Shown here one piece after another: positions 46,497 to 49,503 of a DNA stretch of 64,000 bases. Within the stretch, counting starts at the first letter, position 1. Each line of letters begins with the position of its first letter. The position numbers were made by a program, and so were the translations under genes. The stretch is from contig LNEJ01000065.1 of assembly GCA_001464965.1 (NCBI GenBank), positions 4,548 through 68,547 of the forward strand, read 5' to 3'. This DNA is from Gammaproteobacteria bacterium Ga0074134. Its GTDB lineage: Bacteria > Pseudomonadota > Gammaproteobacteria > Ga0077554 > Ga007554. The notes below the pieces were generated by a model. The model was not told the origin of the DNA. It made no database searches and saw only the letters and a list, made by a program, of their open reading frames with translations.

Positions 46497-47162
46497 ATGA
46501 AGTCCTCAATGCTTGTTTTAGGTCTGGTTTTATCATCCCTTGCCGTTTCGTTTAATGCTGTCGCCGACGGTGGTAATGATCGCTATGAACGCGCTTATGG
46601 CCGGGGCTACTACGGGGGTGATTATGGGCGCCATGGGCGCCATGAGCGCCATGGTCATGGTCATGGTCATGGTCATGGTCATGGTCATGGTCATCGCTAT
46701 GATGCTCGTTACAATGATCGTGATGACGATTTTGCCAATGTGATCGGCGTCGACCCCATCATCGAAATTGCGCGTATACCGTATAGCCGGCAGCAATGCT
46801 GGGATGAGCAGGTCACTTATTCCGGCGGTCGCCATGATGCGGCGGGTGCCATGATTCTTGGCGGTATAGTGGGTAGCGTGGTCGGCAATCAGGTGGGTGA
46901 AGGGCGCGGCAAAGATGCCGCCACATTGCTTGGGACGCTGGTGGGCGCCTCCATCGGCCATGACATGAGCGGGAGAAATGTGCCCCCCACTCCTGTAGTG
47001 AATCAGCGCTGCCGTAATATCACTCAGTATAATGAAAGTGAGCGCGTCGTTGGTTACCGTGTGACGTACCGTTACAGAGGCCAAACCTATGTGACACGCA
47101 CCGAGCGTCATCCTGGATCGACGATCAGGGTCAGTTCGATGGTTACACCGTATGACTATTGA
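46497..47162 (+). CDS. Secreted His-Gly-repeat protein with a glycine-zipper (2TM-type) domain.
   Basis: Signal peptide. (HG)7 encoded by (CATGGT)7. GAMILGGIVGSVVGNQVGEG glycine zipper. Confidence 0.7.
   Translation: MKSSMLVLGLVLSSLAVSFNAVADGGNDRYERAYGRGYYGGDYGRHGRHERHGHGHGHGHGHGHGHRYDARYNDRDDDFANVIGVDPIIEIARIPYSRQQCWDEQVTYSGGRHDAAGAMILGGIVGSVVGNQVGEGRGKDAATLLGTLVGASIGHDMSGRNVPPTPVVNQRCRNITQYNESERVVGYRVTYRYRGQTYVTRTERHPGSTIRVSSMVTPYDY
46650..46691 (+). repeat. Hexanucleotide microsatellite (CATGGT)x7 inside a coding sequence.
   Basis: Seven perfect tandem units encoding the His-Gly repeat. Confidence 0.9.
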
Positions 47163-47448
47163 GCTTCCGGGTTGGATGCCCAACGCATTAAAAGCTGGCG
47201 CGCTGGCGGTGCTATTGGTAGTGTGGGTGATGCCTGCCCACGCCACGCGGGTCACGGATCATCAACCGCGGCAATTGACGCTCGATGATGCTGCCGCCGA
47301 GGTGCGCCAGGCAACAGCAGGGCGGGTGGTGTCGGCGGATGCGGCGGAGATGCGGGGGCGAGCGATGTTCCGCATCAAGGTACTTACCACCTCCGGGCAG
47401 GTGCGCATCATTATGGTCGAGCCGGAGGGCGGTAAATTATTTGAATAG
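47152..47448 (+). CDS. PepSY-domain periplasmic protein.
   Basis: 98 aa. Signal/TM then PepSY-like fold (..AAAEVRQATAGRVVSADA..FRIKVLTTSGQVRII). Overlaps the upstream gene by 11 bp. Confidence 0.6.
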   Translation: MTIELPGWMPNALKAGALAVLLVVWVMPAHATRVTDHQPRQLTLDDAAAEVRQATAGRVVSADAAEMRGRAMFRIKVLTTSGQVRIIMVEPEGGKLFE

Positions 47449-47465
47449 AGCATAAATGGTGGGCG

Positions 47466-48158
47466 ATGCGAATATTGGTCATTGAAGACGAAGCCTCGCT
47501 ACGCGAGCAATTACTGAGCCGGTTCCGCGAGGAGGGTTATGCTGTGGATGCGGCGGCGGACGGGGAGGAAGGACTGTATCTGGGATCGGAATTTCCCTTC
47601 GATGTCGCCGTGGTGGATCTGGGATTGCCCAAGCTATCAGGCATCGAGGTTATCCAGCGTTTGCGCGCCGCGGGAAAAACCTTTCCTATCCTGATTTTGA
47701 CCGCGCGCGGACGGTGGCAGGAGAAAGTTGAAGGGCTGGAGGCCGGCGGCGATGATTATCTGGTCAAGCCGTTTCACATGGAGGAGCTTTTGGCGCGCAT
47801 CAAGGTGCTGCTGCGCCGCGCGGCGGGCTGGTCGCAGCCGGTGCTGCGCTGTGGGCCGGTGGCGCTGGACACCGTCTCCCAGCAGGTCAGCGTGAATGAC
47901 CAGGCCGTTGATCTCACCGCCTATGAATATAACCTGCTTGAATACCTGATGCTGCATAACGGTGAGGTGGTGTCCAAGGCCGAACTTACCGAGCACCTCT
48001 ACGACCAGGATTTCGACCGCGAGAGCAATGTCCTTGAGGTGCTGGTGGGGCGCCTGCGGCGCAAGCTTGACCCGGAAGGGGTGCTCCAGCCCATCGAAAC
48101 CCTGCGCGGACGAGGCTACCGTTTTACGCTGGCGCGCAATTCCCATGCTCTCCCTTAA
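47466..48158 (+). CDS. OmpR/PhoB-family response regulator (PmrA/QseB-like).
   Basis: 230 aa. REC domain with D at VAVVDLGLP. Winged-helix C-terminal domain. Confidence 0.85.
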   Translation: MRILVIEDEASLREQLLSRFREEGYAVDAAADGEEGLYLGSEFPFDVAVVDLGLPKLSGIEVIQRLRAAGKTFPILILTARGRWQEKVEGLEAGGDDYLVKPFHMEELLARIKVLLRRAAGWSQPVLRCGPVALDTVSQQVSVNDQAVDLTAYEYNLLEYLMLHNGEVVSKAELTEHLYDQDFDRESNVLEVLVGRLRRKLDPEGVLQPIETLRGRGYRFTLARNSHALP

Positions 48159-49503
48159 CGCCCGCTTGTTGATCGCGGGCAGCCTGGTGCTGGCGGCGTT
48201 TCTTGGTCTCACCGGTTTTACGCTCGACAAGGCGTTCCGCACTAGCGCCGAGGCCGCCATGCGCGACCGCCTGCAAGGCCATATCTATGCACTGCTCGCC
48301 GCGTCCGATCTGGACAAGAATGGTTTAATGAGCGTATCGAAAGAGATGCCCGATGCTGGATTTGCTACGCAAGGATCAGGCATTTACGGACAGATCGCCT
48401 CGCATGATGGCAAGCAGGTGCTGCGTTCGCCTTCCATGGTGGGGTTGACGATACCCTTCACTCTCGGACTGGAGATGGGAACCAATCGTTTTGAGCGCGT
48501 CATTGCATCGGATGGCACACCTCTATACGCGCTGGGTTTTGGCTTGTCCTGGAAAGTGAAGGGCAAGCAGCGTGGTTTTACCTTTAGCGTTGCTGAGAAC
48601 ATGAACAGCTTTTATGTCCAGGTCAATAGCTTCCGGCGCAGCCTGTGGGGCTGGCTGGGTGGCGTGGCGCTGTTGCTGCTGGCGGTGCAGGGCAGCATCC
48701 TGCGCTGGAGTCTTGCGCCGTTGCGCCGTGTGGCCACCGATCTGGCGGCAATCGAAGCCGGGCGGGCTACCCAGTTGGAAGGCCGTTATCCGCAAGAACT
48801 GCGGGGACTGACCGGCAACCTCAATATTCTGATACGCGCCAGTCATGTGCAGTTGGACCGTTATCGCCATACACTGGGTGATCTTGCGCACAGCCTGAAG
48901 ACCCCGCTCGCCGTCGTGCGCGGTTCCGTGGAAAGTGAAAGCTCGGTGGAGGAGTTGCGCCGCACCGTGCAAGAGCAGGTGGACCGCATGACGCAGATCG
49001 TCGAATACCAGCTCCAGCGTGCCGCAGCGTCGGGCCGCACCGCACTCGCGGCACCGGTGAACGTCAACACGGTAGTGGAGCGGATCGCCGCCTCGCTGAG
49101 CAAGGTTTACGCCGATAAGGGCGTTAATTTTTCAATCCGGATAGAGGGCGATGCCGTGTTTCATGGCGACGAAGGCGATCTGATGGAGCTTTTGGGCAAC
49201 CTGATAGATAACGCCTGCAAATGGTGCCGTCACCGCGTTGCAATAACTGCCCGTCCCCTGACCGGCGCCGCTCATCGGCACGCCGGGCTGGAATTGCGGG
49301 TGGAAGACGACGGACAGGGCATCCCCCTGGAAAATGCCGACCTGGTACTGCAACGCGGTGTGCGCGCCGATGAAACCATCAACGGCCACGGCATCGGCCT
49401 TGCAGTAGTGCAGGACATCCTGCTCGTGTACGGTGGAACGCTGGAGGTCGGTAAAAGTGAGCTGGGCGGCGCGGGTTTTATAGTGCAAATGCCAGGAGCA
49501 TGA
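48145..49503 (+). CDS. Sensor histidine kinase (PmrB/QseC-like), partner of the upstream regulator.
   Basis: Two TM helices flank a ~140-aa periplasmic domain. H-box LAHSLKTPL. HATPase GHGIGLAVV. Start chosen at MLSLNARLL, overlapping the RR stop. Confidence 0.8.
   Translation: MLSLNARLLIAGSLVLAAFLGLTGFTLDKAFRTSAEAAMRDRLQGHIYALLAASDLDKNGLMSVSKEMPDAGFATQGSGIYGQIASHDGKQVLRSPSMVGLTIPFTLGLEMGTNRFERVIASDGTPLYALGFGLSWKVKGKQRGFTFSVAENMNSFYVQVNSFRRSLWGWLGGVALLLLAVQGSILRWSLAPLRRVATDLAAIEAGRATQLEGRYPQELRGLTGNLNILIRASHVQLDRYRHTLGDLAHSLKTPLAVVRGSVESESSVEELRRTVQEQVDRMTQIVEYQLQRAAASGRTALAAPVNVNTVVERIAASLSKVYADKGVNFSIRIEGDAVFHGDEGDLMELLGNLIDNACKWCRHRVAITARPLTGAAHRHAGLELRVEDDGQGIPLENADLVLQRGVRADETINGHGIGLAVVQDILLVYGGTLEVGKSELGGAGFIVQMPGA

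What the first reader, a model, noticed from the sequence alone, without database searches (positions are those of the whole stretch)
46497..49503. Four-gene envelope module: His-Gly-repeat glycine-zipper protein, PepSY protein and an OmpR/sensor kinase pair
A secreted protein carries an (HG)7 metal-binding-like tract plus a glycine-zipper domain. It overlaps a PepSY-domain gene and is followed by a PmrA/QseB-like regulator and a kinase with a ~140-aa periplasmic sensor. The whole block lies between a cytochrome c terminator and an IS remnant next to tRNA-Arg, so it may be a horizontally acquired, self-regulating metal (Ni/Zn/Cu/Fe) or envelope-stress sensing and buffering module. PepSY proteins are recurrent TCS targets but are functionally poorly understood.
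Basis: partly seen in the sequence, partly recalled or inferred. Interest (0 to 1): 0.62.

Follow-up and report, generated by a model that had tools for sequence, protein, structure and literature searches.

The report
PhoPQ-type envelope operon with YcfJ, PepSY
The four genes are real and form a widely conserved, probably self-activating PhoP/PhoQ-type envelope-stress operon (a glycine-zipper YcfJ-like protein, a small PepSY protein, a regulator and a kinase); they are not a recently acquired transition-metal island.

Summary
Four same-strand genes lie at 46497-49503.
- g1 is a secreted YcfJ-family glycine-zipper protein with a (CATGGT)7.5-encoded His-Gly tract.
- g2 is a small secreted PepSY-family protein.
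- g3 is an OmpR-family regulator. It is closest to PhoP, not to PmrA or QseB.
- g4 is a PhoQ-like kinase. Its true start is 48145 and its periplasmic domain is 139 aa.

The cytochrome c terminator and the IS remnant beside tRNA-Arg are also real.

In 80 species-level relatives, the order ycfJ-like, then PepSY in 56 loci, then regulator and kinase recurs in about 65. These include Thioalkalivibrio, Woeseiaceae and Methylophaga; one look-up found the same order in the betaproteobacterium Leeia. The six closest relatives keep the same upstream flank (glcF, cytochrome c), so the block is inherited, not an island.

A direct repeat, RTTCAG-N5-RTTCAG, lies upstream of the ycfJ-like gene in 79 of 80 loci. 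This is the Pseudomonas aeruginosa PhoP box. A -10-like TAnnnT follows 11 nt later in 63 of 80 sites.

The kinase sensor has no known metal-binding motif. The His-Gly tract is a lineage-specific expansion of a variable tail.

Most likely this is an autoregulated PhoPQ/DbfQRS-like envelope-stress operon with a YcfJ-type effector. It is a new variant of a known kind.

The parts
45739..45755 (+). Exact PhoP-type box GTTCAGCTTCAGTTCAG upstream of the cytochrome c gene. TAATAT follows 11 nt later, at 45767-45772.
   Evidence: Conserved upstream of cytochrome c in L005-L010.
45919..46251 (+). Class I cytochrome c gene (110 aa, CLACH haem site). It is probably a separate transcription unit under the same regulator.
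   Evidence: Pfam PF00034, E=5e-10. Box upstream. Terminator downstream.
46293..46343 (+). Intrinsic terminator of the cytochrome c gene: a nested hairpin followed by U7.
   Evidence: MFE -51.3 kcal/mol, z=-4.36, 0 of 200 shuffles fold as well.
46415..46431 (+). PhoP-type box ATTCAGCCCCTGTTCAG. It is a direct repeat with 11-bp period, placed where a -35 element would be.
   Evidence: 2 exact matches to RTTCAG-N5-RTTCAG in 64 kb, 0.06 expected; present upstream of the ycfJ-like gene in 79 of 80 related loci. P. aeruginosa PhoP consensus is GTTCAGNNNNNRTTCAG (PMC3156716).
46443..46448 (+). -10-like hexamer TAGTCT, 11 nt after the box.
   Evidence: TAnnnT at exactly this spacing in 63 of 80 sites (T 64, A 76, T 74 of 80). 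These positions were not part of the search pattern.
46497..47162 (+). g1: secreted YcfJ/UmoD-family protein. Residues 1-23 are the signal peptide, 24-77 a disordered Gly/Arg/His/Tyr/Asp-rich tail, and 78-106 plus 167-212 the beta core. A glycine-zipper helical hairpin at about 115-157 is inserted in the core. The Cys101/Cys172 pair is conserved.
46650..46694 (+). (CATGGT)7.5 in-frame hexanucleotide microsatellite encoding (HG)7. A 9-nt repeat abuts it at 46624-46654.
   Evidence: 100% matches; the same copy number in two independent assemblies; the closest relatives have only HGHG.
47152..47448 (+). g2: small secreted single-domain PepSY-family protein, like DbfQ. An alternative start is at 47176.
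   Evidence: 21 of 28 family members hit PF03413. The family profile hits PDB 9vy3 (PepSY) at E=2e-4.
47466..48158 (+). g3: OmpR-family response regulator with Asp51, PhoP-like.
   Evidence: 45% identical to E. coli PhoP over 222 aa, E=8e-70.
48145..49503 (+). g4: PhoQ-like sensor histidine kinase. It has two transmembrane segments, a periplasmic PDC-like domain at residues 28-166 (nt 48226-48642), then HAMP_PhoQ, an H-box (DLAHSLKTPL) and the ATPase domain.
49605..49732 (+). Remnant of the right end of an IS, including its terminal inverted repeat GGCTAATGGATTATTTGGG. It lies outside the operon.
   Evidence: 78% identity over 129 bp to 4478-4605; the intact copy at 3123-4592 has a DDE_Tnp_1_4 transposase and 24-nt inverted repeats.
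49779..49855 (-). tRNA-Arg(ACG). tRNA-Ser(GCT) follows at 49918-50011, then csrA, lysC and alaS. This is the downstream flank and is not conserved in relatives.

Best explanation
This is a chromosomally inherited, positively autoregulated PhoP/PhoQ-type two-component operon. It resembles P. aeruginosa oprH-phoP-phoQ and V. cholerae dbfQRS, and it senses the state of the cell envelope.

Proposed mechanism:
1. The phosphorylated PhoP-like regulator (g3) binds the direct repeat ATTCAG-N5-GTTCAG at 46415-46431. The repeat replaces the -35 element of a promoter whose -10 is TAGTCT.
2. Binding activates transcription of g1-g2-g3-g4. It separately activates the neighbouring cytochrome c gene, which has its own box.
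3. The kinase (g4) carries a PhoQ-like periplasmic PDC domain.
4. The co-transcribed PepSY protein (g2) is exported. By analogy with DbfQ, it binds this sensor domain and pushes the kinase towards phosphatase activity, which gives negative feedback.
5. g1 is the structural output. It is a secreted YcfJ-family protein whose glycine-zipper hairpin inserts into or associates with a membrane. Its disordered His/Arg/Tyr/Asp-rich tail binds cations, protons or anionic lipid/LPS head groups and helps stabilise the envelope under stress.

What is shown here: the gene content, the conservation of the order, the box and the -10 element, and the family assignments. What is inferred: the DNA binding, the PepSY-kinase interaction, the inducing signal and the role of g1.
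For: Conserved box and promoter:
- The box is upstream of the ycfJ-like gene in 79 of 80 loci. Background is about 0.015 per 450 bp.
- TAnnnT follows 11 nt later in 63 of 80 sites.
- The window has only two exact matches in 64 kb. Both lie just upstream of adjacent + strand genes, against 0.06 expected.
- The motif equals the experimentally defined P. aeruginosa PhoP site GTTCAGNNNNNRTTCAG (PMC3156716).

Family assignments:
- The regulator and kinase rank PhoP and PhoQ first in NCBIfam.
- They are 45% and 37% identical to E. coli PhoP and PhoQ.
- Precomputed Pfam gives HAMP_PhoQ for the kinase. JGI names homologues PhoQ.
- The sensor model (pLDDT 84) aligns over the whole length of PhoQ sensor structures 4uey, 1yax, 6a8u and 3bq8, with target-normalised TM-score 0.43-0.50.

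Conserved gene order:
- A PepSY-family gene sits between g1 and the regulator in 56 of 80 loci and nowhere else in those loci.
- The same four-gene order, with independent Pfam calls, occurs in Leeia and in a Steroidobacteraceae genome.

Precedents from the literature:
- DbfQ binds the DbfS sensor domain. The operon is autoregulated and is induced by LPS defects and polymyxin (PMC12714742).
- SlyB, also a glycine zipper 2TM protein, belongs to the core PhoPQ regulon (bioRxiv 10.64898/2026.06.08.730324; PMC7916210).
- E. coli ycfJ is strongly induced at pH 4.4 (PMC10746267).
Against: - There is no experimental data for this organism, which is known only as a MAG.
- Both the regulator and the kinase score below the NCBIfam PhoP and PhoQ equivalog cut-offs (223 against 336 bits; 214 against 497).
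- The sensor domain has no sequence similarity to enteric PhoQ and lacks its acidic patch. The Foldseek E-values are only about 0.006-0.03.
- The window's own PepSY copy does not reach any Pfam threshold.
- Close relatives L007-L010 lack the PepSY gene altogether, so it is dispensable there.
- The g1 model matches SlyB only non-significantly, at E=0.1. g1 has no lipobox, so a SlyB-like mechanism is an analogy, not homology of the whole protein.
Confidence: 0.62

Rival explanations
1. One reading: a horizontally acquired module that senses a transition metal (Ni, Zn, Cu or Fe) through the kinase and buffers it with the His-Gly protein.
For: - The (HG)7 tract is real.
- His-rich tails recur in 22 of 70 family members, with (HG)n in several separate lineages.
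- Some PepSY proteins bind metals, for example UipA, as cited in PMC12714742.
- An IS remnant and tRNA genes lie next to the block.
Against: - The upstream flank is shared with six related species, and the gene order is widespread.
- GC content shows no anomaly.
- The IS remnant lies outside the operon, at the one junction that differs from relatives.
- The kinase sensor has no ExxE, RExxE or HExxE motif, no Cys and only 2 His.
- The heavy-metal regulator and kinase families score below PhoP and PhoQ: 195 against 223 bits, and 90 against 214 bits.
- Most homologues lack a His tract, and the closest have only HGHG.
Confidence: 0.12
2. It is a BqsPQRS/CarRS-type system: PepSY genes followed by a regulator and a kinase that respond to Fe(II) or Ca2+. 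On this view it is not a PhoPQ-type system.
For: - The architecture is the same: a PepSY gene upstream of the regulator and kinase. The DbfQRS authors treat BqsS as the P. aeruginosa counterpart of DbfS (PMC12714742).
- The BqsR box TTAAG-N6-TTAAG has the same 11-bp period and differs by one base per half-site (PMC4358008).
- A few related loci carry GTTAAG half-sites.
Against: - The half-sites here are TTCAG (78 and 73 of 80 sites have C at that position), which is the PhoP form.
- The RExxE motif required for Fe(II) sensing by BqsS is absent (PMC4358008).
- There is one PepSY gene, not two.
- PhoP and PhoQ are the best curated matches.
- No direct sequence comparison with BqsRS was possible.
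Confidence: 0.15
3. The His-Gly tract has no function of its own. It is a neutral slippage expansion in a disordered linker of an ordinary YcfJ-type protein.
For: - It is a perfect hexanucleotide array with an adjoining 9-nt repeat.
- The tail is predicted disordered, with pLDDT about 50.
- Linker length and composition vary widely across the family, from 0 to 118 aa.
- The closest relatives lack the expansion.
Against: - His enrichment recurs in independent lineages.
- In other lineages, separate box-preceded genes for His/Arg-rich secreted peptides lie next to the ycfJ-like gene. This suggests selection for that composition.
- The copy number is identical in two independent metagenome assemblies.
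Confidence: 0.35

Closest known systems
Pseudomonas aeruginosa oprH-phoP-phoQ operon
   Same: - An envelope protein gene is co-transcribed ahead of phoP-phoQ.
- The regulator site has the same consensus, GTTCAG-N5-RTTCAG (PMC3156716), and sits at the -35 position.
- The regulator and kinase are PhoP- and PhoQ-like.
- The kinase sensor lacks the enteric acidic patch.
   Different: - The first gene is a YcfJ-family glycine-zipper protein, not the OprH beta-barrel.
- An extra PepSY gene lies between it and phoP.
- Sequence identity to the P. aeruginosa proteins was not measured.
Vibrio cholerae dbfQRS (VC1637-1639) and 'DbfQRS-like modules'
   Same: - A small Sec-exported single-PepSY protein is encoded immediately upstream of an OmpR-family regulator and a kinase on the same strand.
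- The V. cholerae pair was described as resembling PhoP/PhoQ (PMC5636140).
- dbfQRS is positively autoregulated, and autoregulation is inferred here from the box (PMC12714742).
   Different: - Here a YcfJ-like gene precedes the PepSY gene.
- The window's PepSY copy is too divergent for Pfam.
- Binding of the PepSY protein to the sensor is untested.
SlyB, the PhoPQ-regulated glycine zipper 2TM lipoprotein
   Same: - It shares the Pfam PF05433 glycine-zipper hairpin. The phmmer hit to 7ojf covers residues 109-157.
- SlyB is a core PhoPQ regulon member, and g1 carries a PhoP-type box.
   Different: - g1 has no lipobox.
- In g1 the zipper is inserted within a beta domain, whereas in SlyB it precedes the beta domain.
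- The fold match is not significant (E=0.1, TM-score about 0.2-0.27).
- SlyB is not encoded in the phoPQ operon.
E. coli YcfJ / Proteus UmoD
   Same: - g1 is 34% identical to YcfJ over 145 aa.
- The Cys pair and the C-terminal motif are shared.
- NCBIfam PRK11280 matches at E=6e-25.
- E. coli ycfJ is stress- and acid-induced.
   Different: - E. coli ycfJ lies between ndh and comR, not beside phoPQ.
- No paper found here links ycfJ to PhoP regulation.
- YcfJ has no His-rich tail.
- g1 scores below the equivalog cut-off (88 against 99 bits).
P. aeruginosa bqsPQRST
   Same: - PepSY genes lie ahead of the regulator and kinase.
- The regulator site is a tandem repeat with 11-bp period that overlaps the -35 element.
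   Different: - The half-site is TTAAG there and TTCAG here.
- The RExxE Fe(II) motif is absent here.
- bqs has two PepSY genes and no YcfJ-like gene.

Membership tests
PhoP/PhoQ two-component system | OmpR-family regulator with the phospho-acceptor Asp, paired with a kinase that has two transmembrane segments, a HAMP domain and the H-box DLxHSLKTPL | tested here: met
   Asp51 aligns with E. coli PhoP D51. The H-box is DLAHSLKTPL, against DLTHSLKTPL in E. coli. Precomputed Pfam gives HAMP_PhoQ.
PhoP/PhoQ two-component system | Score above the curated NCBIfam equivalog cut-offs for PhoP and PhoQ | tested here: not met
   PhoP scores 223.4 bits against a cut-off of 336, and PhoQ 213.8 against 497. 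Both are nevertheless the top-ranked families.
PhoP/PhoQ two-component system | Periplasmic PDC-type PhoQ sensor fold | tested here: inconclusive
   The model (pLDDT 84) aligns over 139-147 columns with PhoQ sensor structures, with target-normalised TM-score 0.43-0.50 and probability about 1.0. E-values are only 0.006-0.03, and generic PAS domains score similarly.
PhoP/PhoQ two-component system | Acidic patch (EDDDDAE in enterics) that binds Mg2+/Ca2+ | tested here: not met
   The periplasmic domain has no run of 3 or more Asp/Glu and is net basic (16 Lys/Arg against 12 Asp/Glu).
PhoP/PhoQ two-component system | Hexamer direct-repeat regulator box with 11-bp period at the -35 position of its own operon | tested here: met
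   The motif is the P. aeruginosa form (PMC3156716). Binding itself was not tested.
PhoP/PhoQ two-component system | Induction by low Mg2+, acid pH or cationic peptides | not testable with these tools
   This needs reporter or RNA experiments.
DbfQRS-like module (PepSY protein plus two-component system) | Small Sec-exported single-PepSY protein encoded immediately upstream of the regulator and kinase on the same strand | tested here: met
   g2 ends 17 nt before g3 and has a hydrophobic N-terminus. 21 of 28 family members hit PF03413. The window copy alone gives no hit.
DbfQRS-like module (PepSY protein plus two-component system) | Direct binding of the PepSY protein to the kinase sensor domain, shifting the kinase to phosphatase activity | not testable with these tools
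   No complex prediction or assay was available.
BqsPQRS | RExxE motif in the kinase periplasmic domain, and a TTAAG-N6-TTAAG regulator box | tested here: not met
   One search finds no ExxE motif of any kind. One search shows TTCAG half-sites. The definitions come from PMC4358008.
YcfJ/UmoD family (glycine zipper 2TM) | PF05433 domain above the gathering score, flanked by the conserved beta core with its Cys pair and the GYRVTY motif | tested here: met
   The score for NCBIfam PRK11280 is 88.1 bits, below the equivalog cut-off of 99. g1 is therefore a family member but not an equivalog.
SlyB | Lipoprotein signal (lipobox Cys) and the SlyB fold | tested here: not met
   The signal peptide has no Cys. 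Foldseek against 7ojf gives E=0.1 and TM-score 0.19/0.27.
Genomic island at a tRNA gene | Atypical composition, absence from the same locus in relatives, and mobility genes or repeats at both ends | tested here: not met
   GC content is like the flanks. The block is present behind the same glcF and cytochrome c genes in L005-L010. Only an IS right-end remnant lies on one side.

The most novel reading that the evidence does not exclude
YcfJ-family proteins may be an ancestral core output of PhoP-type regulons in environmental Gamma- and Betaproteobacteria. In several lineages they are accompanied by separately encoded, box-controlled, secreted His/Arg/Asp/Tyr-rich peptides. Their His-rich disordered tails would act as proton- or metal-switchable polycations. 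Under Mg2+ limitation or acid stress, these would stand in for divalent cations at anionic LPS or phospholipid head groups, an OprH-like job done by an unrelated protein. The in-frame (CATGGT)n microsatellite would then tune the length of this tail.
Probability: 0.15. Interest if true: 0.7.

Novelty: new variant of a known kind. Interest (0 to 1): 0.45.

Why it matters
YcfJ/UmoD proteins are widespread but have no known function. PepSY-linked two-component systems were given a mechanism only in late 2025, with DbfQRS.

The comparison here shows that a YcfJ-type gene is the conserved first gene of PhoPQ-type operons in many environmental proteobacteria. It carries a Pseudomonas-type PhoP box even where the two-component system lies elsewhere in the genome. 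This gives three things:
- a concrete, testable regulatory assignment for the YcfJ family;
- a view of what an older, non-enteric PhoP regulon may look like;
- natural variants, with and without the PepSY gene and with His tails of different lengths, for testing the DbfQ model and the role of the tail.

I found no paper that links YcfJ to PhoP or to PepSY modules. The library searched is incomplete, so this is not proof that none exists.

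Tried and rejected
- Pfam on the window's g2, even at E<=10, gave nothing relevant. PepSY membership had to be shown through relatives.
- phmmer of g1 against PDB sequences gave only a low-complexity hit to NDUFB3 (an HGH repeat) and a weak SlyB hit at E=0.3.
- Foldseek of the g1 model against the PDB gave no significant match. The best was SlyB at E=0.1, and the rest were long beta-hairpins of pore-forming toxins.
- An Rfam scan of 45700-50400 found only the two tRNAs, so there is no known leader RNA.
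- The simple promoter scan missed the real candidate promoter, because it has no -35 element. It reported only chance-level sites.
- I looked for variation in (CATGGT) copy number among assemblies. Two have 7 copies and one contig breaks inside the repeat, so this was uninformative.
- I looked for a degraded PepSY gene in L007-L010 and found none, even at E<=10 with filters off.
- The E. coli ycfJ upstream region was fetched, but it was not scanned for PhoP-type motifs and no conclusion is drawn from it.
- The island hypothesis was rejected on synteny and composition.

Full report
**1. What is in the sequence**

The window matches NCBI assembly GCA_022842345.1, contig JALHPT010000015.1, at 100% identity over the 12.3 kb fetched around the locus, and activated-carbon metagenome contigs over shorter stretches. 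The organism is known only as a gammaproteobacterial MAG.

Four + strand genes occupy 46497-49503.

- **g1 (46497-47162, 221 aa).** It has an N-terminal signal peptide ending AVA|D and no lipobox cysteine. A 54-residue Gly/Arg/His/Tyr/Asp-rich tail follows. The rest is a conserved domain that matches Pfam glycine zipper 2TM (PF05433, 33.4 bits against a cut-off of 24.2) and NCBIfam PRK11280 (E=6e-25, below the equivalog cut-off). It is 34% identical over 145 residues to E. coli YcfJ, E=7e-23.
- **The His-Gly tract.** The (HG)7 tract is encoded by a perfect (CATGGT)7.5 array at 46650-46694, next to a 9-nt repeat.
- **g2 (47152 or 47176 to 47448).** This is a small protein with a hydrophobic N-terminus.
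- **g3 (47466-48158).** This is an OmpR-family response regulator.
- **g4.** It starts at ATG 48145, overlapping g3 by 14 nt. It encodes a 452-aa histidine kinase with two transmembrane segments and a 139-aa periplasmic domain.

- Upstream lies a cytochrome c gene (45919-46251) with a strong terminator at 46293-46343 (z=-4.4).
- Downstream, 49605-49732 is 78% identical to the right end of an intact IS in the same window. That IS spans 3123-4592, encodes a DDE_Tnp_1_4 transposase and has 24-nt inverted repeats.
- tRNA-Arg, tRNA-Ser, csrA, lysC and alaS follow.

The source annotation calls an antisense 192-aa ORF in place of g1. Homologues of the + strand protein with a Pfam domain show that the + strand reading is the real gene.

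**2. Which two-component family**

NCBIfam ranks PhoP first at 223 bits, with PmrA at 184 and QseB at 153. For the kinase, PhoQ scores 214 bits and the next family (CreC) 102.

- g3 is 45% identical to E. coli PhoP over its full length.
- g4 is 37% identical to E. coli PhoQ from the second transmembrane segment to the C-terminus. The H-box is nearly identical.
- The isolated catalytic domain is closest to the PhoQ structures 1id0 and 3cgy.
- Precomputed Pfam assigns HAMP_PhoQ, and JGI names homologues PhoQ.

Both proteins fall below the equivalog cut-offs. They are PhoPQ-like, not demonstrated orthologues of the enteric pair.

The periplasmic domain has no sequence similarity to enteric PhoQ. 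An AlphaFold model (pLDDT 84) has a PDC/PAS fold. PhoQ sensor structures are the only periplasmic sensors among its top matches, and they align over their full length with target-normalised TM-score 0.43-0.50 and E of 0.006-0.03. This is consistent with a PhoQ-type sensor but not decisive.

The domain lacks the enteric acidic patch. It has no ExxE, RExxE or HExxE motif, no cysteine and only two histidines.

**3. Is g2 a PepSY protein?**

The window's g2 gives no Pfam hit even at E<=10. A database search found only eight close relatives. JGI labels one of them YkoI.

I built an HMM from the ORFs that lie between the ycfJ-like gene and the regulator in related loci. It finds a homologue in exactly that position in 56 of 80 loci and nowhere else in those loci.

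- Of 28 aligned members, 21 hit Pfam PepSY PF03413, best E=1.3e-11.
- The family profile hits a solved PepSY protein, 9vy3, at E=2e-4.
- Independent gene calls in Leeia and a Steroidobacteraceae genome also carry PepSY hits at this position.

The PepSY assignment is therefore correct by family membership.

**4. Conservation, and the test for horizontal transfer**

I scanned one genome per GTDB species with the g1 family alignment. This returned 80 loci. Named taxa include Thioalkalivibrio, Woeseiaceae, Lentisalinibacter, Thiohalomonadales, Thiohalobacter, Methylophaga, Thiogranum and Acidiferrobacterales.

| Arrangement | Loci (of 80) |
|---|---|
| ycfJ-like, PepSY, regulator and (where the contig allows) kinase | 56 |
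| ycfJ-like, regulator and kinase, no PepSY gene | 9 |
| ycfJ-like gene alone (4 of these on short contigs) | 15 |

The six closest relatives (L005-L010) have regulators 87-96% identical to g3. They also keep glcF and the cytochrome c gene directly upstream. GC content of the block (0.56-0.62) matches its flanks.

Only the downstream junction differs. Relatives have no tRNA or csrA there. That is exactly where the IS remnant sits in the window, so an IS-associated rearrangement next to the operon is the simplest reading.

That is what I found, so the horizontal-acquisition idea is not supported.

**5. A conserved regulator box and promoter**

ATTCAG-CCCCT-GTTCAG lies at 46415-46431, 82 nt before the g1 start. 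The experimentally defined PhoP site of P. aeruginosa is GTTCAGNNNNNRTTCAG (PMC3156716).

- Allowing up to 2 mismatches, this motif is present upstream of the ycfJ-like gene in 79 of 80 loci.
- Background in the same 823 kb is about 0.015 per 450 bp. There are 28 hits on the whole opposite strand.
- Exact RTTCAG-N5-RTTCAG matches occur in 60 of the 80 loci.
- In the 64-kb window there are only two exact matches on either strand, against 0.06 expected. No shuffle reached two.

When the sites are aligned on the box, a -10-like TAnnnT appears exactly 11 nt downstream in 63 of 80 sites (T 64, A 76 and T 74 of 80). Those positions were not part of the search pattern. In the window this hexamer is TAGTCT at 46443-46448.

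A repeat in place of the -35 element is the usual layout for promoters activated by this kind of regulator. BqsR sites are arranged the same way (PMC4358008).

The box is also present in loci where the two-component genes are not adjacent: L011, L013, L014, L016, L022, L024, L025, L036, L049, L050, L069 and L081. This suggests that the YcfJ-type gene is a regulon member in its own right.

Leeia (Betaproteobacteria) and a Steroidobacteraceae genome have the same four-gene order. Each has a one-mismatch box 84-103 nt before the first gene.

The second exact match in the window, GTTCAGCTTCAGTTCAG at 45739-45755, lies upstream of the cytochrome c gene, with TAATAT 11 nt later. It is conserved in L005-L010.

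**6. The g1 protein and its tail**

Across 70 homologues, several features are invariant or nearly so: two cysteines (C101, C172), the glycines of the zipper, and the C-terminal GYRVTY...PG motif.

The AlphaFold model has three parts.
- A very confident beta core, residues 78-106 and 167-212, with pLDDT above 95.
- Two low-confidence helices at about 118-152. These are the glycine zipper, inserted within the core.
- A disordered tail, residues 1-77.

No solved structure matches significantly. SlyB is the best hit at E=0.1.

The His-Gly tract is about 20 residues longer than in the closest relatives, which have only HGHG. However, 22 of 70 family members have four or more His in this linker, and (HG)n runs occur in several separate lineages.

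In Thioalkalivibrio, Thiohalomonadaceae and other lineages, separate genes sit just upstream of the ycfJ-like gene. Each has its own box, and they encode small secreted His/Arg/Asp/Tyr-rich proteins. This composition therefore seems to be a recurring companion of the module. What it does is unknown.

**7. Most likely mechanism**

*Shown here:* the gene content, the conserved order, the conserved box and -10 element, and the family assignments.

*Inferred:*
1. The phosphorylated PhoP-like regulator binds the box. It activates g1-g2-g3-g4, giving positive autoregulation as in oprH-phoPQ and dbfQRS.
2. The PepSY protein is exported and binds the kinase sensor, biasing it towards phosphatase activity. 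This was demonstrated for DbfQ and DbfS in V. cholerae, where LPS defects, polymyxin and thymol activate the pathway (PMC12714742). The V. cholerae pair was earlier described as resembling PhoP/PhoQ (PMC5636140).
3. g1 is the envelope effector. Two precedents support this. The glycine zipper 2TM lipoprotein SlyB belongs to the core PhoPQ regulon in E. coli, Salmonella, Shigella, P. aeruginosa and Y. pestis and protects the outer membrane. E. coli ycfJ is among the genes most strongly induced at pH 4.4.

From memory, not checked here: the Proteus homologue UmoD was found as an upregulator of flhDC, together with the Rcs-linked UmoB/IgaA. That also points to envelope signalling.

My rough confidence in each step is about 0.85 for autoregulation through the box, 0.55 for PepSY modulation of the kinase, and 0.5 for g1 as a membrane-stabilising or cation-binding effector.

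**8. Rival explanations**

- **A transition-metal module.** The His tract and metal-binding PepSY proteins such as UipA support it. The sensor's lack of metal motifs, the PhoPQ rather than Cus/Czc affinity, and the variable tract count against it.
- **A BqsPQRS-type Fe(II)/Ca2+ system.** It shares the architecture and a near-identical box (TTAAG against TTCAG). But the half-sites here are the PhoP form and the RExxE motif is absent. I could not compare sequences with BqsRS, DbfRS or P. aeruginosa PhoPQ directly, so orthology among these related systems stays open.
- **A neutral slippage product.** The His-Gly tract itself may have no function. This is compatible with any of the above.

**9. 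Novelty and score**

PepSY proteins paired with two-component systems are a published kind (DbfQRS, December 2025). An envelope gene co-transcribed with phoPQ, and a glycine-zipper protein in the PhoP regulon, are also known themes.

Four things appear to be undescribed in the literature I could search:
- a YcfJ-family gene as the conserved first gene of such operons;
- the wide taxonomic spread of the cluster;
- the conserved Pseudomonas-type box with its fixed -10 spacing;
- the recurring His-rich tails or peptides.

I rate it a new variant of a known kind, with moderate interest (0.45). It gives a testable function for an uncharacterised family, but nothing about it is mechanistically surprising.

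Noticed in passing
window 45739-46251: The cytochrome c gene has its own exact PhoP-type box (45739-45755) followed by TAATAT 11 nt later, conserved in L005-L010. Methylophaga loci (L032 6546-7038, L047 6544-7036) carry a different c-type cytochrome, also behind an exact box, between the ycfJ-like and PepSY genes. Why a cytochrome c should belong to this regulon is unexplained.
   Followed up: partly
L023 5447-5821; L028 5439-5810; L040 5455-5829; L013 5336-5743; L016 5313-5789; L083 5046-5378 and 5540-5884; L076 3642-3974 and 5543-5884: Small secreted His/Arg/Asp/Tyr-rich low-complexity proteins are encoded just upstream of the ycfJ-like gene in other lineages. Each has its own RTTCAG-N5-RTTCAG box. 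Their composition resembles the N-terminal tail of the window's g1.
   Followed up: partly
window 46533-47255 (- strand); L001 5358-5936: The public annotation of the source assembly calls an antisense 192-aa ORF in place of the YcfJ-like gene. As a result, this exact protein is missing from the protein database.
   Followed up: yes
window 3123-4592: An intact IS element lies here, with a DDE_Tnp_1_4 transposase at 3236-4579 and 24-nt terminal inverted repeats. Short related fragments occur at 4646-4746 and in the remnant at 49605-49732.
   Followed up: partly
L017 3065-3373, L045 8887-9204, L054 6103-6417, L067 8944-9255 (all - strand): A second, divergent ycfJ-like ORF (27-29% identity) lies on the opposite strand immediately after the kinase gene in four loci.
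   Followed up: no
L007-L010, between the ycfJ-like gene and the regulator: Close relatives (kinase 75-77% identical) have no PepSY gene. Instead they have a 150-270 bp AT-rich non-coding spacer. The PepSY component is therefore dispensable or was lost in that lineage.
   Followed up: partly
L005 8994-12044: Downstream of the kinase, the closest relative has three ORFs in place of the tRNA-csrA region: a 326-aa ORF on the opposite strand, a 457-aa ORF and an adjacent 223-aa ORF. From reading the sequences they look like a secreted trypsin-like protease and an ATPase with a partner protein, but no family search was run on them.
   Followed up: no
window 46455-46480: The predicted 5' leader of g1 contains a short hairpin (CGCCTGCAATGACGAGGCG). 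It is conserved, with one loop change, in L005 and L006. Its function is unknown.
   Followed up: no
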